Below, in pieces: positions 13,970 to 62,031 of a stretch of 62,031 bases of DNA. Numbering within the stretch: position 1 is the first letter of the stretch; every line of letters starts with the position of its first letter. The stretch is from Candidatus Magasanikiibacteriota bacterium. GTDB taxonomy: Bacteria > Patescibacteriota > Patescibacteriia > Magasanikbacterales > 2-02-FULL-50-9b. The notes under the pieces were generated by a model. It was not told the DNA's origin, did not search any database, and saw only the letters and a list, made by a program, of their open reading frames with translations. The stretch covers positions 1-62,031 of the forward strand of contig JAHFHU010000006.1 in the NCBI GenBank assembly GCA_023246755.1, read 5' to 3'. The position numbers and the translations under genes are program-made.

Positions 13970-13990
13970 GCGGTGACGAAAAATCAAAAG

Positions 13991-14025
13991 TTATCCGGAT
14001 ATCCACAAGGATAACCTGCGGATAA
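13991..14025. promoter_or_regulatory. Cluster of four DnaA-box-like TTATCC motifs
   Basis: TTATCCGGA (13991-13999), ATATCCACA (13999-14007), the reverse complement of 14006-14014 = TTATCCTTG, and the reverse complement of 14017-14025 = TTATCCGCA. The consensus is TTATCCACA. Confidence 0.3.
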
Positions 14026-14029
14026 GAAA

Positions 14030-14056
14030 CCCTTGCAAAGTGCAGGGGTTTTTGTT
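14030..14056 (+). terminator. Rho-independent terminator after the YtxH-like gene
   Basis: CCCTTGC-aaagt-GCAGGGG stem (7 bp including one G-U pair) followed by TTTTTGTT. Confidence 0.6.
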
Positions 14057-14300
14057 ACGGTGAGTGTGCTCCAAAACACTTTGCGTGTGCGCCAATGAAT
14101 GCGCCAAAACCAGAGGAGGGGAGTTGTTTGACAGCGTGAGGAGCGCTGCAGTATCGCCGAGGACGGTGCGCATGGAATTTTTGGCATGGGAGGGGGAACT
14201 CGCGCTGAAAATACCCTGGTGACAACTTAAAGTTGGGAGGGATTCTCGCATAAAATTAATACGTGCGGCCTCGGGACTGGAAAATCTCGGGGCTTTGCGT

Positions 14301-14306
14301 TATAAT
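14301..14306 (+). promoter_or_regulatory. -10 box (cgtTATAAT) placed 7 nt before ATG 14313; implies a leaderless or near-leaderless mRNA
   Basis: TATAAT at 14301-14306 and ATG at 14313. The same CGTTATAAT string occurs at 4762-4770 and 6962-6970. Confidence 0.4.
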
Positions 14307-14312
14307 TGCGCC

Positions 14313-50398: not shown

Positions 50399-51317
50399 AA
50401 GAAGACGTTTCGCTCGCAGAATTCTCGACGTTTCATGTAGGTGGCGCTGCAAAATTCGCGGTTGCCGTTCAAACGACGGACGATTTAACAGAAGCAATTG
50501 CTTTTGCAGCCGCGAAAAAAATTTCGTGGCGCGTGCTTGGCGGCGCAAGTAATTTGTTGGTGAACGATGACGGATACAAAGGACTCATTATTTGGTATCG
50601 CAATAAAGATCTCGTGATCGATGCGGAGCTCGGATTTATCGAAGTCGGTGCGGGCGCGATCACCGCAGTTGTTGCCGGCGCATGCGCGCGCGCGGGTTTG
50701 ACCGGGTTTGAATGGGCAGCTGGCGTCCCGGGACAATAGGCGGCGCGATTTACGGCAACGCGGGCGCGTCAAATGGCGAGATGAAAGATTGTGTGACGAG
50801 CGTGCAGGTTTTTGAAAAAGGAAAAATTAAAACGTACGATGCGGCGGCATGTACATTTGGTTATCGCGATTCTATTTTTAAAAAGCAGCCCGCGAGCGTG
50901 ATTATCGGGGCTACGATTAAACTCGCACGTGCCGAAGATTCAGCGGCGCCGCTTGAAAAAATTAAAGAAGTCTTGCGCTATCGGCAAGAAACGCAACCAA
51001 AAGGCGTTGCGTCATCCGGGTGTGTGTTCAAAAATTGTGAGCCAACGGAGGCGGAAATCGTTGTGCTGCGCGCGAAAAAAGTTCCGGATGAATTTTTGCG
51101 CGCGCGTCGCGTGCCGGCGGGATGGCTTATTGAACACGCGAATCTTAAAGGTCATATAATCGGCACCGCGCGCGTGTCCGAGGTGCATGGAAATTTTATC
51201 GTGACCACGGGCGTGGGTTCGAGAGCTGCTGATATATTAGCGCTCATTGCACACATAAAACAGGCGGTGCGTGATCAGTTCGGGGTTGACATTGTGGAGG
51301 AAATCTCGATTGTCTAA
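50386..51317 (+). pseudogene. murB: UDP-N-acetylenolpyruvoylglucosamine reductase (murB) disrupted by a 1-nt frameshift near 50731-50735
   Basis: The N-terminal FAD-binding part (FHVGGAAKF...GGASNLLV...FEWAAGVPG) stops at TAG 50737-50739. The continuation TIGGAIYGNAGA...SGCVFKN...AGWLIE...HGNFIV lies in the -1 frame. Confidence 0.85.
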
Positions 51318-51338
51318 CACGCGGGATCTTTGTATACT
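51310..51338 (+). promoter_or_regulatory. Candidate promoter (TTGTCT-17 nt-TATACT) overlapping the murB stop
   Basis: TTGTCT at 51310-51315 and TATACT at 51333-51338. ATG at 51369. Confidence 0.45.
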
Positions 51339-51368
51339 AGAGACATATCAGTAACTAACAAAAATTAT

Positions 51369-51848
51369 ATGGATTCAGCCGAAATAACTCAGCAAGAAGC
51401 GGCAGTTCCGGTGCCACAGCCACCGAAGATGGAAATTGTGGGCGCGGGCGTTGGCGTTCGTTTTGTCGCGCTTTTCATCGATGGTGTGATTCTCACCGCG
51501 ATGTTTTTTGTGTACGTTGCATTTTTGAGTCTCTTAAGCGGTGGTGGATTCAGTACTTCTTTGCAAGGTGCGTCCGCCAGCTTTTATTTTTTGATTGTCG
51601 CAAGTTATTTTGTACTACTTGAGTGGAAACAAGGAGCGACGATTGGGAAGAAAGCGATGAAATTGCACGTTGAAAAAATCGATGGTTCACCGGTGACGAT
51701 CGGCACGTCACTCGCGCGCAATGTGATGCGGATCATCGACGGAATGTTTGGATATTTGGTCGGTGCAATTGCGATTTGGTCATCACATCGGCACCAACGG
51801 CTCGGGGATATGGTTGCGGGAACAATCGTGCGTTCGTTGAAACATTAA
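51369..51848 (+). CDS. RDD-family membrane protein
   Basis: VRFVALFIDGVIL, then TM helices, then HQRLGDMVAGTIV, as is typical of the RDD domain. ATG 51369 is preferred over the track's TTG 51330. Confidence 0.7.
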   Translation: MDSAEITQQEAAVPVPQPPKMEIVGAGVGVRFVALFIDGVILTAMFFVYVAFLSLLSGGGFSTSLQGASASFYFLIVASYFVLLEWKQGATIGKKAMKLHVEKIDGSPVTIGTSLARNVMRIIDGMFGYLVGAIAIWSSHRHQRLGDMVAGTIVRSLKH

Positions 51849-51859
51849 ATTTATTTTTT

Positions 51860-52171
51860 ATGATGTTACATATTCATGGGTCGGGTTTATCGCTCACAGC
51901 CGCCTTGAAAGAAATGGCCGAGGAAAAATTTGGTCGTTTGAATCGGTTGCTTACGCGATTTGACGACAGCGATTTATTGATGGACATCGAACTCTCAAAA
52001 ACAACCGCGCATCACAACAAGGGTAAAATTTTTCGCGTTGAAATTAATTTGCCGATTGGACGGCATCAGGTTTTTTGTGCAGCTGAGTGCGATGATCTCT
52101 ACGAGGCGATGGATCATTGCGTGACAACTGCCAAACGCCAGCTCACGAAACTCAAGGAAAAGGGCGCATAA
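51860..52171 (+). CDS. hpf: Ribosome hibernation promoting factor / RaiA (short form)
   Basis: 103 aa. The layout LTAALKEMAEEKFGRL...FRVEINLPIGRHQVFCAAECDDLYEAMDHCVTTAKRQLTKLKEK fits the sigma-54 modulation/S30EA family. Confidence 0.8.
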   Translation: MMLHIHGSGLSLTAALKEMAEEKFGRLNRLLTRFDDSDLLMDIELSKTTAHHNKGKIFRVEINLPIGRHQVFCAAECDDLYEAMDHCVTTAKRQLTKLKEKGA

Positions 52172-52219
52172 TGGGACTTGAATAATTCTGAATTACCGGC
52201 TATAGTGATAGCCAATCTT

Positions 52220-54982
52220 ATGTCATTTTTTACGAAAATTTTTGGCGATCCGAATCAGAAAGTATTGAATGCATTCCGGCCGCTGGTTACTGAAATCAAT
52301 GAATTCGCGGATTCTTGCGCGGCATTGTCCGGCGAGCAACTCAAAGAAAAAACAGTCGAATTTCGGGCGCGCCTTGCGGCCGGTGAAACGCTTGATGATA
52401 TTTTACCCGAATCATTTGCAACGGTTCGCGAAGTTGCGAAGCGCACGATTGGTCAGTTTCACTATGATGTGCAGCTCATGGGCGGCATTGTTTTGCATCG
52501 GGGGCAGATCGCTGAAATGCGAACGGGTGAAGGGAAAACGTTGACCGGAACGTTGCCAACGTATCTACATGCGCTGGATGGCCGTGGTGTGCATGTGATC
52601 ACCGTCAATGATTATTTGGCGAAACGTGATGCGGTGTGGATGGGGCAAATTTTTCATGCGCTCGGTTTGACCGTCGGCATTATTCAACAACAGATGACAT
52701 CGTATGTGTACGATCCGAATTATCGTGTCGTGCAGCGCGTGACGAGTGAGGGCGTGACTGATCAGGGAACAGCCGCAGATGTTGAGCGCGACGAGACCGG
52801 CTCATTTCATGTTGAGATGGATTATCTGCGTCCGTGTGAACGGCGCGAGGCGTATGCCGCCGACATCACGTATGGCACGAATAACGAATTTGGTTTTGAT
52901 TATTTGCGCGATAACATGGTGTATTCAGCGCGTGAAATGGTGCAGCGTGGGCTTGCCTATACAATCATCGACGAAGTTGATTCAATTTTGATTGATGAGG
53001 CGCGAACGCCTTTGATTATCAGCGCACCTGCCGAAGAATCGAGTGACACATATGCGCGGTGTGCGGGGATTGCACGTCAGCTTAAAATAAAAGAGCATTT
53101 TATCGTTGACGAAAAACAACGCACGGTAACGTTGACTGATATTGGTATCGCGCATTGTGAGACGCTGCTCGGCGTTGAAAATTTGTATATCGAGGGCGGA
53201 CATCGATTGGTGCACCATGTTGATTCGGCTTTGCGCGCGGAAGTTTTGTACAAACGCGACAAGGATTATGTCGTGAAGGATGGCGAAATTTTAATCGTCG
53301 ATGAATTTACGGGTCGGTTGATGCACGGTCGTCGCTATTCGGAAGGTTTGCATCAGGCGATTGAAGCGAAAGAGGGTGTGCCGGTTCAGCGCGAAAGTCA
53401 GACGCTCGCGACGATTACGTTCCAAAACTTTTTTCGTTTGTACGATCGCATCGCGGGCATGACCGGAACTGCGGTGACCGAAGCTGAAGAGTTTGGAAAA
53501 ATTTATAAGCTTGAGGTTGTCGTGATTCCGCCGAACAAAATTTCGCAGCGTGTTGATTTGGGCGACCAAATTTATCGAACCGAGGCGGGAAAATTTGCGG
53601 CTGTTGTTCGTGAAGTTCGAGCGCGCAATGAAAAAGGTCAGCCGGTTTTGATCGGCACGATTTCGATTGAGAAAAATGAGATGTTGTCACACCTGCTTGA
53701 GCTTGAAGGAATTCCGCATCAGATTTTGAATGCGAAAAATCATGAGCGGGAAGGTGAAATTGTTGCGCAGGCCGGGCGGCGTGGCGCGGTGACACTTGCG
53801 ACAAATATGGCGGGCCGTGGCGTTGATATTATTTTGGGTGGAAATCCGGTGAACGCAGACGACCAAACGCACGTTCGCACCGCGGGTGGGTTGCTCGTGA
53901 TCGGAACGGAGCGGCATGAATCACGTCGTATTGATAATCAGCTTCGCGGGCGCGCAGGCCGGCAAGGCGATCCGGGTTCGACGCAGTTTTATATTTCGAC
54001 TGAAGATGATCTGATGCGTATTTTTGGTTCTGACCGGATGAAAAATTTGATGACACGTTTGAATGTGCCGGATGATATGCCGATCGAGCATGCGCTCATC
54101 ACGAAGTCGCTCGAGACCGCGCAGAAAAAAGTTGAGGGACACAATTTTGATATTCGTAAGCATCTGCTTGAATATGATGATGTGCTCAATCGTCATCGTG
54201 AGGTGATCTACAAAAAGCGGCGTGATATTTTGGAGGCGAGTGAAGCCGACGATGGGTCCGGGCTTGAGCGCGTGATCGCGCTCGTTGACGAAATGCTTGA
54301 AGCTGAAGTTGAGAGTTTGGTTTTTCAAGCAACCGAAGTTGCGGGAGGCATGGATATTGACGTTGACGGATTGCGTCGTGCGCTCGCAACATTGTTACAG
54401 ACGGACAATACAACCGTTGAGAAATTTTTGTTGCCGATTGAAACGGCAGATCAAAAAGATGTTGTGCAATTGCGCACGGAATTGATTGAGCCGCTTGTTG
54501 CACATGCCCAAGCGCGGTTGCGCGACGTCGCCGCTCGCATGGATGATTCCGCATCTGCGCTTCAAACATTGTCGAGTGTGATGCTCCGCGCGCTCGACGC
54601 GCTGTGGATCGAACATTTGGAAGCGCTCAATTATCTGCGCACCGGAATTGGTTTGCGCGGTTATGGCCAACGTGATCCGCTCGTTGAATATAAGCGTGAG
54701 TCGTATCGGTTGTTTCAGGAGTTGCTCGCGTATGTGCAGAAGGATGTGGTGTATGCGGTGCTCGCGATCGAAACCGCGATGCGCACGATGCCGGGACTTA
54801 TGGAGCGTCAAGGAATTATTTTGTCCGGCGCGGCGAAAACGCAAACAGCGCCCGCGGTTCATGACGGCGAAATTGTAACGGGGCACGCAGAAACCGTTAC
54901 CATCAATGGCGAAAAAGTGGGGCGCAATGATGTCTGCCCGTGCGGATCGGGAAAGAAATATAAAAAATGTCACGGCATGTAA
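52220..54982 (+). CDS. secA: Preprotein translocase ATPase SecA
   Basis: IAEMRTGEGKTL, VTVNDYLA and IIDEVDSILIDEARTPLIIS, plus the C-terminal Zn motif CPCGSGKKYKKCHG. ATG 52220 is preferred over the track's TTG 52178. Confidence 0.95.
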   Translation: MSFFTKIFGDPNQKVLNAFRPLVTEINEFADSCAALSGEQLKEKTVEFRARLAAGETLDDILPESFATVREVAKRTIGQFHYDVQLMGGIVLHRGQIAEMRTGEGKTLTGTLPTYLHALDGRGVHVITVNDYLAKRDAVWMGQIFHALGLTVGIIQQQMTSYVYDPNYRVVQRVTSEGVTDQGTAADVERDETGSFHVEMDYLRPCERREAYAADITYGTNNEFGFDYLRDNMVYSAREMVQRGLAYTIIDEVDSILIDEARTPLIISAPAEESSDTYARCAGIARQLKIKEHFIVDEKQRTVTLTDIGIAHCETLLGVENLYIEGGHRLVHHVDSALRAEVLYKRDKDYVVKDGEILIVDEFTGRLMHGRRYSEGLHQAIEAKEGVPVQRESQTLATITFQNFFRLYDRIAGMTGTAVTEAEEFGKIYKLEVVVIPPNKISQRVDLGDQIYRTEAGKFAAVVREVRARNEKGQPVLIGTISIEKNEMLSHLLELEGIPHQILNAKNHEREGEIVAQAGRRGAVTLATNMAGRGVDIILGGNPVNADDQTHVRTAGGLLVIGTERHESRRIDNQLRGRAGRQGDPGSTQFYISTEDDLMRIFGSDRMKNLMTRLNVPDDMPIEHALITKSLETAQKKVEGHNFDIRKHLLEYDDVLNRHREVIYKKRRDILEASEADDGSGLERVIALVDEMLEAEVESLVFQATEVAGGMDIDVDGLRRALATLLQTDNTTVEKFLLPIETADQKDVVQLRTELIEPLVAHAQARLRDVAARMDDSASALQTLSSVMLRALDALWIEHLEALNYLRTGIGLRGYGQRDPLVEYKRESYRLFQELLAYVQKDVVYAVLAIETAMRTMPGLMERQGIILSGAAKTQTAPAVHDGEIVTGHAETVTINGEKVGRNDVCPCGSGKKYKKCHGM

Positions 54983-55119
54983 TTAAATCTCTATTCGAGC
55001 GCACGCGTTAATTTTCCCAGCGGAAAATTCCGCTCTCTCTCGGCGTTGCTCGTCACGCCACAGACGTGACACCGGCCCGCAACGCCTGCGAGAGACGCTC
55101 TCACAGAGGATTTAATTAC
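54979..55119. repeat. 141-bp imperfect composite palindrome (MITE-like or structured RNA) immediately after secA
   Basis: The outer arm GTAATTAAATCTCT (54979-54992) pairs with AGAGGATTTAATTAC (55105-55119). Inner pairings are GGCGTTGC/GCAACGCC, GTCACG/CGTGAC (55053-55070) and a side hairpin AGCGG/CCGCT. Confidence 0.6.
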
Positions 55120-55127
55120 AGGATTTC

Positions 55128-55155
55128 TTGCTTTAAGCTAATGCGTAGTTATAAA
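55128..55155 (+). promoter_or_regulatory. Candidate promoter of the nucleotide-centric cluster (TTGCTT-16 nt-TATAAA)
   Basis: TTGCTT at 55128-55133 and TATAAA at 55150-55155, 13 nt before ATG 55168. Confidence 0.45.
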
Positions 55156-55167
55156 TTTTTCAAAAGT

Positions 55168-55446
55168 ATGAAAACAAAAGAAGACATAATCAATCAAATG
55201 CGTGCAGAGGGTTTTTTAATTATTAATGAATATAATGATGCACCAAGTGAAGAGTTTCCTGATCATGATCATGAAGGAGATCAGTTTTTAGTCGTGCTTA
55301 GTGGTTCGATCACGATAACAATGGATGGAAAAGTTTCTATTTTGCTGCCCGGCGATGAAATGTTTTTTCCTGCGCATGTAATACACAGTGCAAAAGTTGG
55401 GCCGGAAGGTTGTTTGTATATTGATGGGGAACGATCAAATGAGTGA
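55168..55446 (+). CDS. Cupin-domain protein (~92 aa)
   Basis: Cupin motif 1 is PDHDHEGDQFLVVLSG and motif 2 is GDEMFFPAHVIHSA. ATG 55141 is an alternative start but lies inside the putative promoter. Confidence 0.7.
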   Translation: MKTKEDIINQMRAEGFLIINEYNDAPSEEFPDHDHEGDQFLVVLSGSITITMDGKVSILLPGDEMFFPAHVIHSAKVGPEGCLYIDGERSNE

Positions 55447-55460
55447 CTATAAATCATGAT

Positions 55461-55514
55461 ATGTGTCCGCGTGGTTCAGGAAAAAAATATAAAAATTGTC
55501 ACGGTTCAAATTAA
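55461..55514 (+). other. 17-codon mini-ORF MCPRGSGKKYKNCHGSN; a SEC-C motif relic resembling the 3' end of secA
   Basis: 34 of 42 nt are identical to secA codons CPCGSGKKYKKCHG (54935-54976). The second Zn-ligand Cys is replaced by Arg. Confidence 0.5.
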
Positions 55515-55518
55515 AAAT

Positions 55519-55905
55519 ATGTCTCAAACATCTAAGCTCGTCGCTTCAGCACTCATCATTAAAGGTGATACTATTTTGTTAGTTCAAAATCAAAAAAATC
55601 CAAAGAAAGGTTGCTATGGATTTCCGGGCGGCGTTGTTAAGCTTGCAAATCCGATCAAAGCACTTGAGGAAATGGTTTCTACTGACACGGGTTGTAAATT
55701 TAGTGGCGAATTTTTCACGTATAACTATCGCGATGAAGAATTTCCCGTCGCTACACTATTTTTTATTGGGACAACCAAAAGCAAGCCACAAAGTCTCGGT
55801 ATAAATATTGTTGATGCGAAATTTTTCCCCATCGAAGAAGCGCTTACAATGGATTTGGCGCATGAGCATAATGCGATTTTGGAGCAGTACGTGGCGACGT
55901 GCTAA
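55519..55905 (+). CDS. Nudix-fold protein with a degenerate Nudix box
   Basis: The N-terminal region ASALIIKGDTILLVQNQ...YGFPGG is typical of Nudix proteins. The box reads GGVVKLANPIKALEEMVSTDTGC and lacks the REx2EE catalytic core. Confidence 0.65.
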   Translation: MSQTSKLVASALIIKGDTILLVQNQKNPKKGCYGFPGGVVKLANPIKALEEMVSTDTGCKFSGEFFTYNYRDEEFPVATLFFIGTTKSKPQSLGINIVDAKFFPIEEALTMDLAHEHNAILEQYVATC

Positions 55906-55906
55906 T

Positions 55907-56287
55907 ATGAAAATCGCAATTTGTGGCAGCATGAAATTTTCTGCCGACATGCTTGAGACAAAAATCGCGCTCGAAGCATTGGGCCACGAGGTGACGGTGC
56001 CAAAGGGGGTGTTTATGGATAGTGAAAATGCGCAGTTGAAAATTGAACATGATTATATCCGACATTATCATGGAAAAATTTCTGAGGCTGATGCAATTTT
56101 AGTTTTGAATAAAACAAAAAATGGTGTTGAAAATTATATCGGTGGAAATACCTTGATGGAACTTGGTTTCGCGCATGTGATGAATAAAAAAATTTATTTG
56201 ATGCATCCGATTCCGCAGATGGGATACACGGATGAAATTATTGCGGTGGAGCCGTTTGTGTTGCATGGTGATTTCTCGTTACTATGA
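55907..56287 (+). CDS. Nucleoside 2-deoxyribosyltransferase-like (flavodoxin-like fold) protein
   Basis: MKIAICGSMKF..., later ADAILVLN...GGNTLMELGFAHVMNKKIYLM. This is the pattern of the NDT-like/Nuc_deoxyri_tr2-type family as I recall it. Confidence 0.5.
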   Translation: MKIAICGSMKFSADMLETKIALEALGHEVTVPKGVFMDSENAQLKIEHDYIRHYHGKISEADAILVLNKTKNGVENYIGGNTLMELGFAHVMNKKIYLMHPIPQMGYTDEIIAVEPFVLHGDFSLL

Positions 56288-56709
56288 GCGAACCGATTGG
56301 ATTTTACGAAGGCCGCTTCTACATGCTCTCAAATTTCAGCGCACATCAGGTTGTGTATGAGGGCGTGCGATATGCGACGTCGGAGCATGCGTATCAAGCT
56401 GCAAAATTTTCGGATTTGGTGCAGCGCGAAAAAATTATGCAGGCGCCCAGTGCTTTTTTAGCTCGCGAGTACGGGCAGTCGCTCGACGGCCGCGTGGAAT
56501 CATTTGATAAAATCGGTGTTATCAAAAATATCATGCGCGAAAAAATGGTGCAGCATGACGATGTGCGCGAAGCGCTTCGAGCAACAGGCGACGCGGAAAT
56601 TTTAAAAAATCATCCGGACGATGACGGATTTTGGGGAATGGGCCCTGATGGCAGCGGACAAAACAACATGGGAAAAATTTGGATGGAACTGCGCGCAGAA
56701 ATTATATGA
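56284..56709 (+). CDS. NADAR (DUF1768, YbiA-like) family protein
   Basis: FYMLSNFSAHQVVYEGVRYATSEHAYQAAKF and DDDGFWGMGPDGSGQNNMGKIWMELR are hallmark NADAR motifs. ATGA overlap with the upstream gene. Confidence 0.8.
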   Translation: MSEPIGFYEGRFYMLSNFSAHQVVYEGVRYATSEHAYQAAKFSDLVQREKIMQAPSAFLAREYGQSLDGRVESFDKIGVIKNIMREKMVQHDDVREALRATGDAEILKNHPDDDGFWGMGPDGSGQNNMGKIWMELRAEII

Positions 56710-57281
56710 AATTGATTCTTGGCTCTTCGTCAAAATTTCGCCGCAGTGTAATGGACGAATTGGGTGTGCACTACGAAGTTGTTGTGCCAGATATAGATGA
56801 AAAAGCAATTCGTTCGAATGACCCCGATGAATTGGTGCTTGCAATTGCAAATGCAAAGGCGGATGCGGTGGTGGCGCGCGTGCAGGAACCTGCATTCGTG
56901 ATAACATCCGATCAGGTCGTAGTGTGGAATGGACAGATACGCGAAAAGGCGGAATCAATTGAGCAGGCGAAGGAATTTATTCGATCGTACAGCGAACATT
57001 CGGCGGTGGTTGTGAATGGCATGACGGTCACGAACACAGAAACCGGAAAGCGCGTGCACAGTGTTGAGGCGATGCACGTGTGGTATATGCCAATACCAGA
57101 AGATATTATTGACCTGATCGCATCTGAGCCGGATACAATGTTGTCAGCTGGCGCACTCCGATTCGAATCGTCAATCTGGCAAAAATTTATGATTCACACC
57201 GATGGATCGGCCGATCACGCGATGGGGTTGCCAAAAAAACAATTGTTTGATTTGTTTAAACAACACGGACTTGACTTATAA
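56706..57281 (+). CDS. maf: Maf-family nucleoside triphosphate pyrophosphatase
   Basis: MKLILGSSSKFRRSVMDELG...PDIDEK is the typical Maf N-terminus. ATGA overlap with the NADAR gene. Confidence 0.8.
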   Translation: MKLILGSSSKFRRSVMDELGVHYEVVVPDIDEKAIRSNDPDELVLAIANAKADAVVARVQEPAFVITSDQVVVWNGQIREKAESIEQAKEFIRSYSEHSAVVVNGMTVTNTETGKRVHSVEAMHVWYMPIPEDIIDLIASEPDTMLSAGALRFESSIWQKFMIHTDGSADHAMGLPKKQLFDLFKQHGLDL

Positions 57282-57335
57282 AAGTTGCCTTCTCTCACAA
57301 AGAAGCGTAAACTTCGTTATAGTTTTACCATAAAT

Positions 57336-58253
57336 ATGCTTAGTGAAAAATCAGCTTTTTTTTCAAATCTACCATATGCAATATATGTCGAAGCGAATGG
57401 TGACCCAACTGGAACTTGTTGTTTGTTTATTCCCGGTGGTTACCATACAGGTTTTTGTTACACTAAAACACCTGATGGGCGTGACGGATGGGGAAAGATC
57501 GCAGCAAATTATGGGTATCATTCATTGATTACTGATGTGCCCGGAACAGGGAGGTCAGGCGGGGTTCCATTTGAAAAAATTAACAGTCAATTTATTGTTG
57601 ACGCCTATGTTGATTTAATCAACAAAATTGACCAGAAGGTTATTATTTTTGTCCACTCGCTTTCCGGAAGTATTGGTTTTAAGATTGCGGAGACGATACC
57701 AAACAAAGTTAGTCATTTAGTTGCTGTTGAGCCAAGCATGTTTGGTAACATTCAGGAGGTGCTTATCCCTAAAACAGAAACGGATGAGATGGTGTGTGTC
57801 AACTTTCATGGTTTGGAATTTAAACTTGATATGACCAAAGCCGCTCCTGCTTCGCAGCAAGTAATTGATAGATTTACAACAAAAAACGATTCGACTAAAT
57901 TATTATTTCCGAAGTATTCAGAACAGCACTTAGATCAGTATGCGGCCTCGCTGCAAAATCAGCATCCGCGGCTTCTTTATGAGCTTTTTAATATAAGAGA
58001 GTCAAAATTAAAAATTGAAAATTTTGGTTCTCTTAAGTGTATCCAGTTTCTTGTCTTGACGTCACCCGATGATCCGTTACATAAAGAAGATGATATAAAA
58101 ATAGTCACAAAACTTCGCGAAGAAGGTTGTAATGTGGAACACTGGAACAAAGGAGCGCATGGAACAGAGGGTAACACTCACATGATGATGATTGAAAAAA
58201 ATAATGAAAATATATTCATTGAGATTAATAAATGGATTTTAAATAATAAATAA
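57336..58253 (+). CDS. Alpha/beta-fold hydrolase
   Basis: The nucleophile elbow VHSLSGSIGF comes after a beta-strand, and a C-terminal His is present (GNTHMMM). ATG 57336 is preferred over the track's TTG 57285. Confidence 0.65.
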   Translation: MLSEKSAFFSNLPYAIYVEANGDPTGTCCLFIPGGYHTGFCYTKTPDGRDGWGKIAANYGYHSLITDVPGTGRSGGVPFEKINSQFIVDAYVDLINKIDQKVIIFVHSLSGSIGFKIAETIPNKVSHLVAVEPSMFGNIQEVLIPKTETDEMVCVNFHGLEFKLDMTKAAPASQQVIDRFTTKNDSTKLLFPKYSEQHLDQYAASLQNQHPRLLYELFNIRESKLKIENFGSLKCIQFLVLTSPDDPLHKEDDIKIVTKLREEGCNVEHWNKGAHGTEGNTHMMMIEKNNENIFIEINKWILNNK

Positions 58254-58254
58254 T

Positions 58255-58986
58255 ATGAGTAACAAATTTCCGGATCAGAATCAACCATCACACGAAAGTC
58301 TTTATGGTGGAAAACACAAAGGTGATACATGGACACTCAGTGAAAATTTTGATAAGAACCCGAGGGGTGCAGCGATTCAATTTATTAGAAATAAATTTTC
58401 TGGACCAATTTCAGTTCTCGACATTGGTTGTGGTAAAGGTGTAAACACCATGTGGGTTGCAAAAGATGACGTACAAAGTAATTGGGTTGGTGTTGACGCG
58501 GTAGCCCCAGATAAGATTGGTATCCAAATACCAGTAGAAAACAAAAATGTGGCATTCGTTCAGGGTGATTTTCTTCATGATGATTCGCTTTCCGCAAAGA
58601 ACTTGGAGTTGCAACAACAATTTGAAATTGTTGTTGATCAAGGTGCGGCATTTGTTGAGATTGACGATGAAGTGGTGATGAGTAAATATCTCGCTAAAAT
58701 AGCGAGATATTTGAAAACAGGGGGTTACTTTATTGCACTAACAGTGGAGGGTAAACACGGGACGACGATTTGGCCTGATGGTAGAAAACGGGTTTTTCAT
58801 GACTTAAGTGATTTTGAAAAAGTACCGTTTTCAGAATACTTTGAAGTGGAAAAAGTTACGGGTAACTTTGGTTATAGTTATTTACCCGAAGATGCAGCCT
58901 TACCACATGTAAAAAATCCAATGGGAGCAAAAACAGGTGATGAAAGACAAGTTGTTATGGTACATATTTTTTTCAAGAAAAAATAA
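58255..58986 (+). CDS. Class I SAM-dependent methyltransferase
   Basis: Motif I is VLDIGCGKGVN. The acidic post-I residue and motif II (FEIVVDQGA) are present. Confidence 0.75.
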   Translation: MSNKFPDQNQPSHESLYGGKHKGDTWTLSENFDKNPRGAAIQFIRNKFSGPISVLDIGCGKGVNTMWVAKDDVQSNWVGVDAVAPDKIGIQIPVENKNVAFVQGDFLHDDSLSAKNLELQQQFEIVVDQGAAFVEIDDEVVMSKYLAKIARYLKTGGYFIALTVEGKHGTTIWPDGRKRVFHDLSDFEKVPFSEYFEVEKVTGNFGYSYLPEDAALPHVKNPMGAKTGDERQVVMVHIFFKKK

Positions 58987-59061
58987 GCGAGTCAGCATTA
59001 TTGTGTTTCAACCGTGCGCGATGTTGTTATCTGCATTTAGATTTAAATTTTTGATTGGATT

Positions 59062-59325
59062 ATGAATTTAAATAATCATGAACCGCTTGCATGGTCCGAA
59101 GCCGCCGGTTCGTTACAGCCTGGCCGATACCAACATTACAAAGGTGGAATTTATGAAGTTCTTGGCGGCGCGCGTCACAGCGAGACGTTGGAAGAATTAG
59201 TCGTGTACAAACATGACGGCGAATTGTGGGTGCGGCCGCTCACTATGTTTTTGGAAACAGTAGAGTATAATGGCGTTCGACTCGCGAGATTCACTTTTAT
59301 CGGAACAAATTATGTCACCCCATGA
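59062..59325 (+). CDS. DUF1653-domain protein
   Basis: YQHYKGGIYEVLGGARHSETLEELVVYKHDGELWVRPLTMF matches the DUF1653 signature. Confidence 0.75.
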   Translation: MNLNNHEPLAWSEAAGSLQPGRYQHYKGGIYEVLGGARHSETLEELVVYKHDGELWVRPLTMFLETVEYNGVRLARFTFIGTNYVTP

Positions 59326-59683
59326 ATACATCCAGAATGCGCTACGCACCGAAACAAAACAGTACCGTTTTTCGACAACCGACGAAGTTACACCGCGCAT
59401 CGAGCATGCGGTGATGGGGCTCGTGACTGAAGCGGGCGAGTGTATGGACGCGCTCAAGAAAGCAAAAATCTATGGTAAGCAGCTTGATAAAGTTAATTTG
59501 ATGGAAGAGGCGGGGGATATTATGTGGTATCTCGCAATTTTGGCCGACGAACTTGGCGTTTCGTTTGAAGATATGTGGGAAAAAAATATCGCGAAATTGC
59601 GCGTACGGTTTCCAGAAAAATATACGAATGAATTGGCTGATAATCACGACATCATAGCCGAGCGTGCTGCGCTGGAGCAATAA
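59312..59683 (+). CDS. MazG-like all-alpha nucleotide pyrophosphohydrolase
   Basis: GLVTEAGECMDALKK and MEEAGDIMWYLAILADELG provide the EExxE/D metal-binding helices. Overlaps the DUF1653 gene by 14 nt. Confidence 0.75.
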   Translation: MSPHEYIQNALRTETKQYRFSTTDEVTPRIEHAVMGLVTEAGECMDALKKAKIYGKQLDKVNLMEEAGDIMWYLAILADELGVSFEDMWEKNIAKLRVRFPEKYTNELADNHDIIAERAALEQ

Positions 59684-59684
59684 T

Positions 59685-60278
59685 ATGATGCATGATATTG
59701 ATTTGCTTTTTGAAGTTGGCGCGTATCGTCATGTGAAGCGCATGTGGATGCAGCATTTTCACGACGGCATCATGGAAAATGATGCGGAGCACTCATTTCG
59801 AGTAATTTGGATCGCGCTCACGCTCGCACGTAACGAAAAAGTTGATGTCGATTACAAAAAACTCATGACGATGGCACTGATTCATGATATTCCCGAAATT
59901 CGCTGTGGCGATCAGAGTATCGTACAAAAACTTTACGTGACGTGCGATGAGGACGCGGCGTTGAAGGATATGCTGGGTGAAACGTCGCTCAAAGATTTTA
60001 TCGAGGTGTACCAAGAATACAAGTTGCGCGACTGTATTGAAGCTCAAATTGTGAAAGATGCGGACAATCTCGAGGTAGATTTTGAACTTGCCGAGCGCGC
60101 CGCAACAGGTTCTGATCTGGCCCGCATGTGGATCAAGGAGCAGCGGCCGCAGGTTCGCGAAAAATTATACACAGATTCAGCACGGCGCATGTTCGATGAA
60201 TTGGTTGCAAACGGTAACCCGCATCAATGGATGCTTCGTAAGAATAAGTTTACCGAAAACCCGAATCATTCGGAGTAG
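59685..60278 (+). CDS. HD-domain phosphohydrolase, YfbR-like 5'-deoxynucleotidase family
   Basis: ENDAEHSFRV (His), LIHDIPEIRCGD (HD...D) and KDADNLE. Starts 2 nt after the MazG-like stop. Confidence 0.75.
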   Translation: MMHDIDLLFEVGAYRHVKRMWMQHFHDGIMENDAEHSFRVIWIALTLARNEKVDVDYKKLMTMALIHDIPEIRCGDQSIVQKLYVTCDEDAALKDMLGETSLKDFIEVYQEYKLRDCIEAQIVKDADNLEVDFELAERAATGSDLARMWIKEQRPQVREKLYTDSARRMFDELVANGNPHQWMLRKNKFTENPNHSE

Positions 60279-60297
60279 TTGTCCACCGTTTGCAGGC

Positions 60298-60326
60298 TTG
60301 CCTTTGGCGCGTGCTTCTGATAATAT
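60298..60326 (+). promoter_or_regulatory. Candidate secD promoter (TTGCCT-17 nt-TAATAT)
   Basis: TTGCCT at 60298-60303 and TAATAT at 60321-60326. ATG at 60351. Confidence 0.45.
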
Positions 60327-60350
60327 TGAGCCACTTTCTAAACGATTGGT

Positions 60351-62031
60351 ATGAAACTACGAACACAAAACACGGAAATTCATCGTTCAAACGTACGAAA
60401 TGGTCTCATCGCCGTTGCGATTATCGCGCTTCTTGCGGCGGGATATAGTTACCCACACGTTTATAATAAGTTTTCTGATACGGTTCACGCAAAAATTGGT
60501 GTACCGCTCGGTCACATGGGTTCGGGCCCATTTCGTTTGGGGCTTGATTTACGGGGTGGTGCGTACCTCATGTACGATGTTGATACGTCGAGTGTGACGG
60601 ATTCTGAAAAAGCGTCGGCGGTTGAGGGCGCACGCGATGTCATTGAGCGTCGGGTGAATGCGTTTGGTGTTGGTGAGCCTGTTGTTCAGACAACAAAAGT
60701 TCGTGATACGTGGCGTGTTCTTGTCGAGTTGCCCGATGTGCATGATGTCAAGGCGGCAATTGACCAGATTGGCGCGACACCAATTTTAGAATTTCGTGAT
60801 AAAGCGGTCGGCGAAAATAAATTGACGCCGGATCAGGAAAAGCAAATTCTTGAACAGAATAAGAAAGCAGGGGAAAGCGCGCGTGTTGCTGTGCAGGATC
60901 TTAAAAAAGAACCTTCGTTTGAGGATTTTTTCAAGAAAAATAGTGGAAAAGATTTTGGTGATGTGAACCAAAAGGACGTGCCGGAGCTTTATCAATGGGC
61001 TGCGGGAGCAAAACAAGGAGCAATTTCAGATGTTGTTGATGCAAAACACGGTTATTTTATCGTTGAGCGTGGCGCGGAAAAGAAGAGTCCTGTTGCGCAG
61101 GCGCGTCATATTTTAATTTGTTGGAAGGGCGCGACGCAGTGTAATGGTACGATCTCAAAAGAGGACGCATTGCAAAAAGCAAAAAATTTGTTGTTGAAGG
61201 TGACGCCGCTGAATTTTGCTGATATCGCAAAAACAGATTCAACCGAGCCCGGAGCTGCACAAAGCGGCGGTGATCTCGGAGAAATTCGAGCGGGTCAACT
61301 CGTTAAGCCATTTGAAAACGTTTTATTTGGCATGAAAGTTGGGCAAATTACGGGGCCGGTTGAAACAGAATTTGGATATCACGTGATCTATAAAATCGCG
61401 GAACAACAAGAAAGTTCGTTTGCGCTTCGTGGGTTTGTATTTCCGAAAAAAACTGCGCAAGATTTTTTGCTCGGTGGAGAGTGGAAAGCGACGGGACTTT
61501 CAGGCAAACAACTCGAACGGGCAACGGTTGAATTTGATTCAAAAATCGGTGAACCCAATGTAACGCTTCAGTTTAACGCGGAAGGTAAACAATTATTTGC
61601 GGACATTACAAAGCGCAATGTCAATCAGCAAGTTGGAATTTTTCTCGATGGACAGGTGATTAGTCAGCCAACGGTTCGCGAACCTATTCTTGATGGACGC
61701 GCGGTTATTTCCGGCAATTTTACAATTGATGCGGCAAAAAAATTAGCAGAACGTTTAAATGCAGGTGCATTGCCATTGCCGATTAAATTAGTAAGTCAGA
61801 CAACGGTTGGTGCGACGCTTGGCGCGAAATCTTTGTCCGATAGTGCCCGCGCAGGCCTTATCGGCTTTGCGTTGGTTTTGGTTTTTCTCATCGCGTTATA
61901 TCGGTTGCCTGGCGTGCTTGCGGGGATTGCACTCGTTGTGTATTGCGCGATCGTTCTTGCGGTGTTCAAATTTATTCCGGTCACGTTGACGCTTGCGGGA
62001 ATCGCTGGTTTCATTCTTTCGATTGGAATGG
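60351..62031 (+). CDS. secD: Protein translocase subunit SecD with a parvulin (PpiC-type) PPIase domain inserted in the periplasmic P1 region; 3' end lies outside the window
   Basis: I translated this myself because it is absent from the ORF track; the frame is open to the window end. SecD signatures are RLGLDLRGGAYLMYDVD, ERRVNAFGVGEPVVQ, IGATPILEFR, VGIFLDGQVISQPTVREPILDGRAVISGNFT and LNAGALPLPI. The parvulin signature spans ARHILI...GGDLGEI...FGYHVIYK (about 61101-61394). Confidence 0.85.
   Translation, partial: MKLRTQNTEIHRSNVRNGLIAVAIIALLAAGYSYPHVYNKFSDTVHAKIGVPLGHMGSGPFRLGLDLRGGAYLMYDVDTSSVTDSEKASAVEGARDVIERRVNAFGVGEPVVQTTKVRDTWRVLVELPDVHDVKAAIDQIGATPILEFRDKAVGENKLTPDQEKQILEQNKKAGESARVAVQDLKKEPSFEDFFKKNSGKDFGDVNQKDVPELYQWAAGAKQGAISDVVDAKHGYFIVERGAEKKSPVAQARHILICWKGATQCNGTISKEDALQKAKNLLLKVTPLNFADIAKTDSTEPGAAQSGGDLGEIRAGQLVKPFENVLFGMKVGQITGPVETEFGYHVIYKIAEQQESSFALRGFVFPKKTAQDFLLGGEWKATGLSGKQLERATVEFDSKIGEPNVTLQFNAEGKQLFADITKRNVNQQVGIFLDGQVISQPTVREPILDGRAVISGNFTIDAAKKLAERLNAGALPLPIKLVSQTTVGATLGAKSLSDSARAGLIGFALVLVFLIALYRLPGVLAGIALVVYCAIVLAVFKFIPVTLTLAGIAGFILSIGM

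What the first reader, a model, noticed from the sequence alone, without database searches (positions are those of the whole stretch)
55168..60278. Co-directional nucleotide-centric gene cluster between secA and secD: best candidate for an undescribed system
Seen: ten ORFs plus a micro-ORF all lie on the + strand, with coupled or abutting junctions. There are ATGA overlaps at 56284 and 56706, a 14-nt overlap at 59312, and 1-nt gaps at 55905/55907, 58253/58255 and 59683/59685. The run begins after a promoter-like TTGCTT-16-TATAAA and ends before secD's own promoter. The region is visibly AT-richer than secA and secD. Order: cupin, SEC-C relic, Nudix fold with degenerate box, nucleoside 2-deoxyribosyltransferase-like, NADAR/DUF1768, Maf, alpha/beta hydrolase, class I SAM methyltransferase, DUF1653, MazG-like, HD (YfbR-like). 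Established: Nudix, MazG and Maf enzymes cleave canonical or modified (d)NTPs. YfbR-type HD enzymes dephosphorylate dNMPs. NDT-family enzymes swap or hydrolyse nucleobases and include CMP hydrolases in nucleoside-antibiotic pathways. NADAR proteins act as N-glycosidases (YbiA) or remove ADP-ribose from guanine bases. Inference: six or seven enzymes that attack different bonds of a nucleotide, plus tailoring-type enzymes (methyltransferase, hydrolase, cupin), in one transcription unit is not a known housekeeping operon. Hypotheses: (i) a salvage and sanitation line that converts scavenged, possibly modified host or phage nucleotides into usable bases in an organism lacking de novo synthesis; (ii) biosynthesis or detoxification of a modified nucleoside metabolite; (iii) a nucleotide-depletion or signal-degrading conflict (anti-phage or counter-defence) module.
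Basis: partly seen in the sequence, partly recalled or inferred. Interest (0 to 1): 0.75.

Follow-up and report, generated by a model that had tools for sequence, protein, structure and literature searches.

The report
Variable nucleotide-cleaning gene array after secA
Between secA and secD, this candidate-phyla-radiation bacterium carries a tightly packed, changeable row of small enzymes that most likely break down abnormal nucleotides and recycle them, while three of the ten genes are unrelated later insertions, so this is a new arrangement of known enzymes rather than a new kind of system.

Summary
Ten + strand genes and a 17-codon micro-ORF sit at the stated coordinates with the stated junctions. 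Every family assignment survives HMM or fold tests.

- In seven related genomes (SecA 70-85% identical), the secA-secD interval holds between 1 and about 15 genes.
- A backbone recurs in a largely fixed order: degenerate Nudix, NDT-like, (NADAR), Maf, DUF1653, MazG, HD.
- The "tailoring" genes are not part of this backbone. The cupin is unique to this genome. It lies in a 529-nt insertion flanked by a 49-nt duplicate of the secA tail.
- The hydrolase and methyltransferase form a separate two-gene cassette. The same pair occurs elsewhere in non-nucleotide contexts.
- In 158 distant Patescibacteria and DPANN loci, NDT-like genes have Maf, Nudix/NADAR and HD neighbours far more often within 3 kb than further out (50 vs 9 hits, p = 6e-12).

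Best reading: a modular, probably co-transcribed array of independently acting enzymes that clean the nucleotide pool and feed salvage, in a presumed scavenger. Reading (i) is favoured. The defence and biosynthesis readings have little support.

Novelty: new variant of a known kind. Interest: about 0.4.

The parts
54927..54975 (+). Last codons of secA (SEC-C zinc motif). This is copy 1 of a 49-nt direct repeat.
   Evidence: the repeat finder family D1; sequence read.
54988..55143 (+). GC-rich structured spacer after the secA stop. It is 98% identical to the spacer in relative L086, although the flanking secA DNA is only about 74% identical. It is part of the 529-nt insertion.
   Evidence: identity; RNA fold -56 kcal/mol, z -3.35; no Rfam match.
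55168..55446 (+). Cupin_2 protein (alternative start 55198). Specific to this genome and not part of the conserved backbone.
   Evidence: Pfam 9e-12; absent from all related intervals; GC 0.376.
55456..55514 (+). Relic of an older secA tail (micro-ORF 55461-55514, CPC changed to CPR). This is copy 2 of the 49-nt repeat. It abuts Nudix just as the intact secA tail does in L005 and L093.
55519..55905 (+). Nudix-fold protein with a degenerate Nudix box (EEMVSTDTG in place of REUxEExG). Backbone member.
   Evidence: PF00293 22.2 bits vs cut-off 21.1; PDB matches are NrtR- and NadM-type Nudix proteins; orthologues 70-95% identical keep the degenerate box; small family, 69 clusters.
55907..56287 (+). 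Protein of the nucleoside 2-deoxyribosyltransferase / DNPH1 fold, predicted to be an N-glycosidase or transferase. It belongs to a family found predominantly in CPR and DPANN. Backbone member.
   Evidence: 561 homologues; 19 of 40 match PF05014; pLDDT 94 model matches DNPH1, BcmB and NDTs; E85 in the YIGGNTLME motif is invariant.
56284..56709 (+). YbiA-like NADAR N-glycosidase. Backbone member in some relatives; fused to Nudix in L087/L088; decayed in L086.
   Evidence: PF08719 1e-21; TIGR02464 70.3 bits vs cut-off 73.7; PDB 2b3w YbiA 2e-18.
56706..57281 (+). Maf nucleotide pyrophosphatase of the YceF subtype. Backbone member.
   Evidence: PF02545 3e-36. It has the S9-R12-E32-K51-D69-K81 signature plus F11-Q70-E154, read from the alignment to YceF against the motifs defined in PMC3899018.
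57336..58253 (+). Alpha/beta hydrolase (alternative start 57285). First gene of an inserted two-gene cassette.
   Evidence: Only 10 homologues; the same pair with the methyltransferase occurs in L172-L175 in other contexts; GC 0.369.
58255..58986 (+). Class I SAM methyltransferase. Second gene of the inserted cassette.
   Evidence: Pfam; 60-74% identical partners next to the hydrolase homologues.
59062..59325 (+). DUF1653 protein of unknown function. It recurs in the array and overlaps the next hydrolase gene.
   Evidence: PF07866 2e-23; PDB 3be3, an uncharacterised protein; present in L088, L093, the P0156 locus and L132.
59312..59683 (+). Single-domain MazG-type all-alpha NTP pyrophosphohydrolase. 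The most persistent member of the interval.
   Evidence: PF03819; phrog_229 3e-37; nearest PDB entries 2q73 and 2q5z; present in 7 of 8 intervals; 63%-identical phage homologues.
59685..60278 (+). HD_3 phosphohydrolase of the YfbR/HDDC2/OxsA type, predicted to be a 5'-(deoxy)nucleotidase. Backbone member.
   Evidence: PF13023 8e-20; PDB 1xx7, AF1432 and HDDC2, with the H...HD...D motifs aligned; 87% identical in L088 and L093.

Best explanation
The interval is a lineage-conserved but plastic array of small enzymes. Each probably acts on its own to clean the nucleotide pool and feed salvage. The array sits directly downstream of secA in a Patescibacteria (CPR) genome and is probably co-transcribed.

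Inferred flow, from the known chemistry of the families (no activity was tested here):
- The YceF-type Maf and the single-domain MazG cut modified or non-canonical NTPs and dNTPs to monophosphates.
- The YfbR/HDDC2-type HD enzyme removes the 5'-phosphate.
- The DNPH1/NDT-fold protein and the YbiA-type NADAR protein cleave or exchange the N-glycosidic bond. This releases bases and sugar phosphates for re-use.
- The degenerate Nudix protein and DUF1653 are conserved partners of unknown role. They may bind ligands or confer specificity.

Members are gained, lost and exchanged one at a time.

The cupin gene and the hydrolase-methyltransferase cassette are later, unrelated insertions into the same permissive site.
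For: Shown:
- Family and fold assignments hold.
- Catalytic signatures are intact in Maf (S-R-E-K-D-K plus the YceF-type F-Q-E), in HD, in MazG (EExxE/EExxD, aligned to 2q73), and in the NDT-like protein (invariant Glu).
- The same gene order recurs between secA and secD in relatives with 70-85% SecA identity. Additional nucleotide enzymes appear there: NTPase_I-T, an adenylate-kinase-like AAA_17/18 protein, HD_4 and UMPH-1.
- Orthologue identities track SecA, which indicates vertical inheritance of the backbone.
- Overlapping or abutting junctions are conserved in L088. They are commoner inside the cluster than elsewhere in the window (7/9 vs 16/50).
- In 158 distant NDT-like loci, nucleotide-family neighbours are concentrated within 3 kb: 50 hits against 9 in the larger 3-10 kb zone (p = 6e-12). 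By family: Maf 15:0, Nudix/NADAR 24:2, HD 7:1.
- secA-linked NDT arrays also occur in distant Patescibacteria (L028, L035, L083, L132, L133).

Established knowledge:
- CPR bacteria commonly lack complete nucleotide synthesis (PMC9698310).
- Salvage does not proofread nucleotide chemistry. Protection then depends on sanitising enzymes, including all-alpha NTP pyrophosphatases, ITPases and Nudix hydrolases (PMC12887539).
- Maf enzymes prefer modified NTPs, and the YceF type prefers m7GTP (PMC3899018).
Against: - No enzyme activity, substrate or transcript was tested.
- The window cannot show whether this genome lacks de novo purine and pyrimidine synthesis.
- The Nudix box is degenerate, so that member may not be a hydrolase at all.
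- DUF1653 has no known function.
- The array also accepts non-nucleotide genes: an SDR, a C39-like peptidase, HopA1, LMWPc, the cupin and the hydrolase-methyltransferase pair.
- The array can shrink to MazG alone (L178). The clustering may therefore partly reflect a permissive insertion site rather than pathway logic.
- The neighbourhood counts used single-sequence phmmer searches on crude ORFs. This misses distant MazG and Nudix relatives.
Confidence: 0.6

Rival explanations
1. Permissive insertion hot spot. The site downstream of secA simply tolerates small co-directional genes and accumulates them. The nucleotide theme then reflects the accessory gene pool of CPR genomes, not functional coupling.
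For: - Content varies from 1 to about 15 genes.
- Non-nucleotide insertions are present: cupin, hydrolase-methyltransferase, SDR, C39-like peptidase, HopA1 and LMWPc.
- There are relics of a secA tail and of NADAR.
- The window and L086 share a near-identical spacer and a 95%-identical Nudix despite only 75% SecA identity. This points to recombination in this interval.
Against: - Backbone families keep largely the same order across genomes.
- NDT-like genes at unrelated loci in distant Patescibacteria and DPANN also attract Maf, Nudix/NADAR and HD neighbours within 3 kb (50 vs 9 hits, p = 6e-12). A site effect cannot explain this.
- This reading is compatible with the best explanation rather than exclusive of it.
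Confidence: 0.2
2. NAD/ADP-ribose sub-module. The Nudix and NADAR members process ADP-ribose or NAD-derived metabolites, rather than general nucleotide pools.
For: - NADAR and Nudix are fused into one protein in L087/L088 and L133.
- The best Nudix matches are NrtR- and NadM-type ADP-ribose-binding Nudix proteins, though the matches are weak.
- The NADAR family is linked to ADP-ribose derivatives in the literature (PMC9503650).
Against: - The NADAR protein is nearest to YbiA and the riboflavin-intermediate N-glycosidase model.
- No ADP-ribosyltransferase, sirtuin, Macro or NAD-salvage gene is in the array.
- The window's Nudix box is degenerate.
- This reading explains at most two of the seven backbone genes.
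Confidence: 0.1
3. Conflict module. The array depletes nucleotides or degrades signalling nucleotides, either in anti-phage defence or in counter-defence.
For: - There are weak domain-level hits to PADLOC candidates (PDC-S07 1e-4, PDC-M42C 4e-5, mad2 3e-10) and to the NADAR anti-phage model.
- MazG has 63%-identical homologues in large phage contigs, inside a replication module.
- NADAR has many phage relatives at 34-43% identity.
Against: - All defence-library scores are far below family cut-offs, for example 44.8 bits against 240.
- There is no sensor, effector or toxin partner.
- The backbone is inherited vertically between housekeeping genes.
- HD, Maf, DUF1653 and the NDT-like protein have no close viral relatives.
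- Members are individually dispensable across relatives.
Confidence: 0.06
4. Biosynthesis or detoxification of a modified nucleoside metabolite. An NDT/BcmB-like glycosidase would act together with tailoring enzymes (methyltransferase, hydrolase, cupin).
For: - The fold search ranks the CMP N-glycosidase BcmB among the top matches.
- The HD protein's best PDB match is deposited as an 'oxetanocin-like protein'.
- A methyltransferase, a hydrolase and a cupin are physically present.
Against: - The three tailoring genes are absent from every related interval.
- The hydrolase-methyltransferase pair travels as its own cassette in non-nucleotide contexts.
- The cupin lies in a separate insertion.
- No core biosynthetic enzyme is present.
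Confidence: 0.03

Closest known systems
House-cleaning (nucleotide-pool sanitising) enzymes: Maf (YhdE/YceF), MazG-type all-alpha NTP pyrophosphatases, Nudix hydrolases, ITPases
   Same: The same protein families are present, with intact catalytic signatures in Maf and MazG. Relatives add an NTPase_I-T protein. The proposed role is the one described for these families (PMC3899018; PMC12887539).
   Different: In model organisms these genes are scattered and single, as far as I know. Here five to ten of them form one compact array of variable content at a fixed chromosomal site. The Nudix member lacks the catalytic box.
DNPH1/Rcl, BcmB/MilB and nucleoside 2-deoxyribosyltransferases (NDT superfamily)
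   Same: The predicted fold matches (Foldseek probability 1.0, TM 0.5-0.65). There is an invariant Glu in a G-G-N-x-x-x-E motif at the place of the nucleophile. Half of the family members match PF05014.
   Different: There is no sequence-level match to any solved structure. The protein is shorter (126 aa). It lacks the N-terminal Tyr of classical NDTs, which I read from the sequence and from my own knowledge of NDTs. The family is found predominantly in CPR and DPANN. Whether it is a hydrolase or a transferase, and whether it acts on nucleosides or nucleotides, is unknown.
E. coli YfbR / human HDDC2 / OxsA-type HD phosphohydrolases
   Same: HD_3 and YfbR-like Pfam matches, with the H...HD...D motifs aligned to 1xx7 and HDDC2.
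   Different: It scores far below the YfbR equivalog cut-off (23.5 vs 122 bits), so it is a relative and not an orthologue.
E. coli YbiA (NADAR; N-glycosidase of riboflavin intermediates)
   Same: Best solved relative, 2b3w at 2e-18, aligned over the full length. TIGR02464 scores 70.3 bits.
   Different: The score is just under the curated cut-off of 73.7. In a relative the domain is fused to an intact Nudix domain, which points to other substrates.
Mobile and phage single-domain MazG genes. PDB 2q73 and 2q5z are, from my memory, the integron-cassette iMazG; the entries are deposited only as 'hypothetical protein'.
   Same: These are the nearest solved structures. It is a small stand-alone MazG, and 63%-identical copies sit in a phage replication module.
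   Different: Here the gene is chromosomal, syntenic and vertically inherited. No attC-like repeats separate the genes.

Membership tests
Maf (PF02545), YceF subfamily | S-R-E-K-D-K signature motif, plus aromatic-Q-E subfamily residues (PMC3899018) | tested here: met
   S9, R12, E32, K51, D69, K81 and F11, Q70, E154, read from the alignment to YceF 4jhc against the motif definition. Pfam 125 bits vs cut-off 27.
Maf | Nucleotide pyrophosphatase activity with a preference for modified NTPs | not testable with these tools
   Needs an enzyme assay.
MazG-type all-alpha NTP pyrophosphohydrolase (PF03819) | Pfam score above the gathering cut-off, and acidic EExxE / EExxD metal-binding motifs | tested here: met
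   34.9 bits vs cut-off 22. TEAGE and EEAGD align with EEVGE and EELYD of 2q73. phrog_229 3e-37.
HD_3 / YfbR-like 5'-deoxynucleotidase | HD-domain H...HD...D metal ligands | tested here: met
   aEHSfrv, lIHDipE and vKDADnle align with 1xx7. PF13023 71.9 bits vs cut-off 22.5.
YfbR equivalog (NF003009) | Score above NCBIfam's curated cut-off | tested here: not met
   23.5 bits vs cut-off 122.
NADAR (PF08719) | Pfam score above the gathering cut-off | tested here: met
   78.3 bits vs cut-off 35.1. Aligned to YbiA over residues 12-140.
Riboflavin-intermediate N-glycosidase (TIGR02464, YbiA type) | Score above the curated cut-off | tested here: inconclusive
   70.3 bits vs cut-off 73.7.
NADAR anti-phage protein DS32_2 (NF053876) | Score above the curated cut-off | tested here: not met
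   44.8 bits vs cut-off 240.
Nudix hydrolase | Nudix fold (PF00293) | tested here: met
   22.2 bits vs cut-off 21.1, a marginal pass. PDB Nudix matches down to 4e-4.
Nudix hydrolase | Catalytic Nudix box GX5EX7REUXEEXGU | tested here: not met
   The window has GGVVKLA-NPIKALEEMVSTDTGC. The canonical domain in L088 has GKVESGERVADAARRELFEETGI. Wider relatives keep only KEVxxDxG.
Nucleoside 2-deoxyribosyltransferase superfamily (PF05014; DNPH1, BcmB) | Profile match of the protein itself | tested here: not met
   No Pfam or NCBIfam hit. No PDB sequence hit, even with a 40-sequence profile.
Nucleoside 2-deoxyribosyltransferase superfamily | Fold, conserved nucleophile Glu, and family-level profile match | tested here: met
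   The pLDDT 94 model has DNPH1, BcmB and NDTs as top hits. E85 is invariant in 40 sequences. 19 of 40 homologues match PF05014.
DUF1653 (PF07866) | Pfam score above the gathering cut-off | tested here: met
   83 bits vs cut-off 23.5. PDB 3be3 7e-6.
Known anti-phage defence systems (PADLOC-DB v2) | Strong matches to the component proteins of one system | tested here: not met
   Only weak single-domain hits to four unrelated models.
Conserved operon or gene cluster | The same genes in the same order in related genomes | tested here: inconclusive
   Seven of the ten genes recur in order in subsets of seven related genomes. Three never do. Content ranges from 1 to about 15 genes.
Conserved operon or gene cluster | Co-transcription | not testable with these tools
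   Only indirect evidence: tight junctions, and no promoter or terminator signal above chance.
Integron-like cassette array | Repeated recombination sites between the genes | tested here: not met
   No inter-gene repeat family was found. The only long repeat is the duplicated secA tail.

The most novel reading that the evidence does not exclude
The array is a dedicated, co-regulated 'nucleotide quarantine' toolkit of host-dependent ultra-small bacteria and archaea. It is built around a CPR/DPANN-specific glycosidase of the DNPH1/NDT fold. Its membership is tuned, by gain, loss and exchange of single genes (including exchange with phages), to the modified nucleotides that the organism scavenges. 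DUF1653 and the catalytically degenerate Nudix protein would be new specificity or regulatory partners.
Probability: 0.18. Interest if true: 0.6.

Novelty: new variant of a known kind. Interest (0 to 1): 0.4.

Why it matters
CPR bacteria and DPANN archaea commonly lack complete nucleotide synthesis, so many must live on scavenged nucleotides (PMC9698310). Salvage does not check nucleotide chemistry, so such cells should depend heavily on enzymes that destroy modified or damaged nucleotides (PMC12887539).

This locus gives that idea a concrete, testable form.
- It is a compact set of seven candidate enzymes and partners with predictable substrates.
- It is conserved at one chromosomal site.
- A CPR/DPANN-specific member of the DNPH1/NDT fold is statistically linked to Maf, Nudix/NADAR and HD enzymes across both radiations.
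- It offers first functional context for DUF1653 and for a small family of degenerate Nudix proteins.

It does not reveal a new kind of molecular system.

Tried and rejected
- **Promoter and terminator scans of 54500-60900.** Counts were at chance level (promoters 12 vs 13.7 +/- 3.6; terminators 10 vs 6.5 +/- 2.5). No transcription-unit boundary could be confirmed.
- **Rfam.** At gathering thresholds over the whole window, only tRNA-Pro was found. A permissive scan of 54850-55300 found nothing.
- **PADLOC.** Only weak domain-level hits, so rejected as evidence of defence.
- **PDB sequence searches for the NDT-like protein.** Tried with the single sequence and with a 40-sequence profile; only chance hits. 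Structure prediction and fold search settled the question instead.
- **Viral-contig scans.** No relatives were found for the NDT-like, HD, DUF1653 or Maf proteins. A scan with a 33-nt core of the conserved spacer found nothing.
- **Cluster-member look-up for organism names.** No names were returned. The taxonomy therefore rests on SecA neighbours, which are about 60% identical to Magasanikbacteria, Parcubacteria and other Patescibacteria.
- **Literature searches.** I searched for the cluster, for DUF1653 and for deoxyribosyltransferases in CPR. No description of this arrangement was found.
- **Covariation test on the 156-nt spacer.** Only two near-identical copies are available, so the test was uninformative. 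Spacers after secA in other relatives are GC-rich hairpins but are not alignable to it.
- **Integron-like cassette array.** Considered and rejected, because there are no repeats between the genes.
- **Whether the hydrolase-methyltransferase cassette in L172 comes from the same organism as L091.** They share a sample, but this cannot be shown.

Full report
**1. Observation**

- ATGA overlaps at 56284-56287 and 56706-56709
- a 14-nt overlap at 59312-59325
- single-base gaps at 55906, 58254 and 59684

The micro-ORF at 55461-55514 reads MCPRGSGKKYKNCHGSN*. It is a damaged copy of the SEC-C end of secA (CPCGSGKKYKKCHGM*, ending at 54982).

The interval is AT-richer than its flanks: 0.418 GC against 0.475 for the window and 0.50 for secA. 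The dip is confined to cupin, Nudix, NDT-like, hydrolase and methyltransferase (0.37-0.41). NADAR, Maf, DUF1653, MazG and HD are at 0.47-0.49.

Two supporting arguments are weaker than stated.
- Nearly the whole window is coded on the + strand: about 60 of 73 crude ORFs.
- The TTGCTT-N16-TATAAA motif at 55129-55156 does not pass a sigma-70 consensus scan. Promoter-like and terminator-like sites are at chance frequency.

Tight junctions are commoner inside the cluster (7 of 9) than elsewhere in the window (16 of 50), but they are a general trait of this genome.

**2. Family assignments**

Pfam, NCBIfam and PHROGs support these assignments:
- Cupin_2
- a marginal NUDIX match
- NADAR
- Maf
- an alpha/beta hydrolase
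- a class I methyltransferase
- DUF1653
- MazG
- HD_3 (YfbR-like)

The third gene has no profile hit of its own and no sequence relative in the PDB. Other evidence places it in the NDT superfamily.
- Its 561 homologues are predominantly from Patescibacteria and DPANN archaea.
- 19 of 40 homologues match PF05014.
- An AlphaFold model (pLDDT 94) finds DNPH1, the CMP N-glycosidase BcmB and nucleoside 2-deoxyribosyltransferases as its best structural matches.
- Glu85, in the motif YIGGNTLME, is invariant.

Details for the other members:
- **Maf.** It carries the full S-R-E-K-D-K signature and the aromatic-Q-E residues that define the YceF subfamily. I read these from the alignment to YceF against the definitions in PMC3899018. 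That paper associates the YceF subfamily with m7GTP.
- **MazG.** Its nearest solved relatives are 2q73 and 2q5z. From memory these are the integron-cassette iMazG; the entries are deposited only as 'hypothetical protein'.
- **HD.** It aligns with 1xx7, AF1432 and human HDDC2, with the metal ligands in place.
- **NADAR.** It aligns with E. coli YbiA over its full length.
- **Nudix.** It lacks the catalytic box. Its orthologues are 70-95% identical and share the same degenerate sequence, so it is maintained, probably for something other than canonical hydrolysis. The wider family is small, 69 clusters among 1.84 billion representatives, and is itself semi-degenerate.

**3. Organism**

SecA has about 20 close relatives (70-85% identical). 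Identity then drops to about 60%, with proteins labelled Magasanikbacteria, Parcubacteria, Kaiserbacteria and Patescibacteria. The window therefore comes from a Patescibacteria (CPR) lineage without a named close relative.

The local context is shared with its relatives: PBP, Mur ligase, MurB, RDD, hibernation factor, SecA, then the array, then SecD and SecF.

**4. Synteny: the decisive test**

The secA-to-secD interval in related genomes, with SecA identity to the window in brackets:

| Genome | Genes between secA and secD |
|---|---|
| window / L001 | cupin, secA-tail relic, Nudix*, NDT, NADAR, Maf, hydrolase, methyltransferase, DUF1653, MazG, HD_3 |
| L005 (84%) | Nudix*, NDT, Maf, MazG |
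| L002-L004 (72%) | Nudix*, NDT, MazG |
| L086 (75%) | Nudix*, SDR, NDT, 403-aa unknown, NADAR remnants, Maf |
| L087-L090 (85%) | NTPase_I-T, adenylate-kinase-like AAA_17/18, 105-aa unknown, NDT, NADAR-Nudix fusion, Maf, DUF1653, HD_4, MazG, HD_3 |
| L091/L093 (83%) | Nudix*, Nudix, NDT, Maf, two unknowns, DUF1653, C39-like peptidase, UMPH-1, LMWPc, further unknowns, HopA1, MazG, HD_3 |
| P0156 locus (70%) | 222-aa unknown, DUF1653, AAA_17/18, 105-aa unknown, SDR, Nudix, Maf, Nudix, short MazG |
| L178 (71%) | MazG only |

Nudix* marks the degenerate-box form.

A backbone thus recurs in a largely conserved order: Nudix*, NDT, (NADAR), Maf, DUF1653, MazG, HD_3. Its orthologue identities track SecA. 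It gains and loses members, and relatives add yet more nucleotide enzymes.

The cupin, hydrolase and methyltransferase have no counterpart in any related interval.

**5. The three 'tailoring' genes are separate insertions**

*Hydrolase and methyltransferase.* The hydrolase has only ten homologues in 5.8 billion clusters. In L172/L173 and L174/L175 its homologues are again followed, 1-2 nt later, by homologues of the methyltransferase (60-74% identical). The surroundings there are glycoside hydrolases, a metallo-beta-lactamase-fold protein and transporters, not nucleotide enzymes. The pair is therefore a self-contained, low-GC cassette. In the window it landed between Maf and DUF1653. L093 carries a different insertion at the same junction.

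*Cupin.* It lies in a 529-nt insertion bounded by a 49-nt direct repeat of the secA tail (54927-54975 and 55456-55504). The downstream copy abuts Nudix exactly as the intact secA tail does in L005 and L093. It is therefore the old end of secA, now decaying.

**6. Wider linkage**

I took 158 loci holding distant (42-55% identical) NDT-like genes from GTDB species genomes and JGI metagenomes. In these, hits to the other array families fall overwhelmingly within 3 kb of the NDT-like gene: 50 hits in 0.71 Mb, against 9 hits in the 1.01 Mb lying 3-10 kb away (binomial p = 6e-12). By family the inner:outer counts are Maf 15:0, Nudix/NADAR 24:2, HD 7:1 and a second NDT-like gene 20:0.

Several distant Patescibacteria also place the NDT-like gene just downstream of secA:
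- L035: secA, NDT, Nudix, secD
- L132: secA, DUF1653, NDT, Nudix
- also L028, L083 and L133

The association is therefore older and broader than this clade. It is not only a property of one insertion site.

These counts used single-sequence phmmer searches on crude ORFs, so they understate the linkage for divergent families.

**7. Mechanism**

*Shown:* folds, motifs, conserved order, tight junctions and statistical linkage.

*Inferred from the established chemistry of the families:*
- Maf and MazG convert modified or non-canonical (d)NTPs to monophosphates.
- The HD enzyme dephosphorylates (d)NMPs.
- The DNPH1/NDT-fold and NADAR proteins cleave or exchange N-glycosidic bonds, releasing bases and sugar phosphates.
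- Relatives add an ITPase-type NTPase, a pyrimidine 5'-nucleotidase and a nucleotide kinase.

This matches the logic that salvage does not proofread nucleotides and must be backed by sanitising enzymes (PMC12887539). It also fits a group of organisms that commonly lacks complete nucleotide synthesis (PMC9698310).

Because membership varies gene by gene, the enzymes most likely act independently on a shared pool rather than as an obligate pathway or complex.

I put this reading at about 0.6. The role of the degenerate Nudix and DUF1653 proteins is open.

**8. Rivals**

- **Pure insertion hot spot (0.2).** It explains the variability and the non-nucleotide passengers. It does not explain the conserved order or the linkage at unrelated loci.
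- **NAD/ADP-ribose sub-function for NADAR plus Nudix (0.1).** The fusion in L087/L088 and the NrtR/NadM-like Nudix matches suggest it. It covers only two genes.
- **Defence or counter-defence (0.06).** It rests on sub-threshold library hits and on phage relatives of MazG and NADAR. Synteny, vertical inheritance and the dispensability of single members argue against it.
- **Modified-nucleoside biosynthesis (0.03).** It loses its tailoring enzymes.

**9. Comparison and novelty**

Each component belongs to, or resembles, a known house-cleaning or salvage family. I searched the literature for Patescibacteria with Maf or MazG, for DUF1653, for deoxyribosyltransferases in CPR, and for house-cleaning clusters. 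None of these searches found a description of this arrangement.

I rate it a new variant of a known kind: a compact, modular, site-anchored array of known enzyme types with two uncharacterised conserved partners. It is useful and testable, but not very surprising. Interest: 0.4.

Noticed in passing
window 54988-55143 (and L086 2751-2906): The 156-nt GC-rich spacer after the secA stop is 98% identical between the window and L086, although the adjoining secA DNA is only about 74% identical. It folds stably (-56 kcal/mol, z -3.35), has no Rfam match, and is single-copy in all the sequence held. In L086 it is flanked by TGTCATGG...TGTCACGG, as if it had been inserted into the last secA codons and supplied a new stop. 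Whether it is a structured RNA, a terminator or a small mobile element is undecided.
   Followed up: partly
window 54927-54975 and 55456-55504: A 49-nt direct repeat (82% identical) of the secA SEC-C tail brackets a 529-nt insertion that carries the spacer and the cupin gene. The downstream copy is a decaying relic with CPC changed to CPR.
   Followed up: yes
L086 5685-5795 vs window 56302-56379 and 56581-56619: L086 keeps two short remnants of the NADAR gene, 83-90% identical, between a 403-aa unknown gene and Maf. This looks like gene loss caught in progress.
   Followed up: partly
window 55497-55905 vs L086 2905-3313: The Nudix gene is 91% identical in DNA and 95% in protein to L086, while SecA is 75% and SecD 69% identical. 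This suggests a recombination tract between lineages inside this interval.
   Followed up: partly
L180-L184 (IMG/VR contigs up to 177 kb), match at 6001-6378: 63%-identical MazG homologues sit in a phage replication module that also holds family B polymerase, a RecA/UvsX-like protein, DnaB and a gp32-like SSB. This indicates exchange of this MazG type between large phages and this bacterial group.
   Followed up: partly
L172 8001-9652, L173 3844-5495, L174 3587-5255, L175 238-1906: The alpha/beta hydrolase plus methyltransferase pair is a conserved, low-GC, two-gene cassette of unknown function with very few homologues (10 clusters). It is found in varied contexts.
   Followed up: partly
L087 10351-11211, L088 744-1604, L133 4065-4943: NADAR and a canonical Nudix domain are fused in one 286-aa protein in some relatives.
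   Followed up: no
L087 9098-9962; P0156 locus (no DNA held; genes at 13768-14617): An adenylate-kinase-like AAA_17/18 gene followed by a 105-aa protein recurs as a pair in two related arrays. The 105-aa protein has only a faint P-II-like match, E = 0.0035. In L092 (608-934) a homologue of the 105-aa gene alone follows the NDT-like gene on a short contig.
   Followed up: no
window 50386-51317: murB is split into two overlapping ORFs by a frameshift near 50727-50735. Relatives have one 308-309-aa MurB. This could be an assembly error or a real disruption.
   Followed up: partly
window 60351-62031: SecD carries an inserted PpiC-type peptidyl-prolyl isomerase domain at residues 246-350. The same is seen in all relatives examined.
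   Followed up: no
window 1-62031: There is a strong gene-strand bias (about 60 of 73 crude ORFs on the + strand). GC skew is positive in every 500-nt window over the profiled stretch 48000-62031.
   Followed up: no
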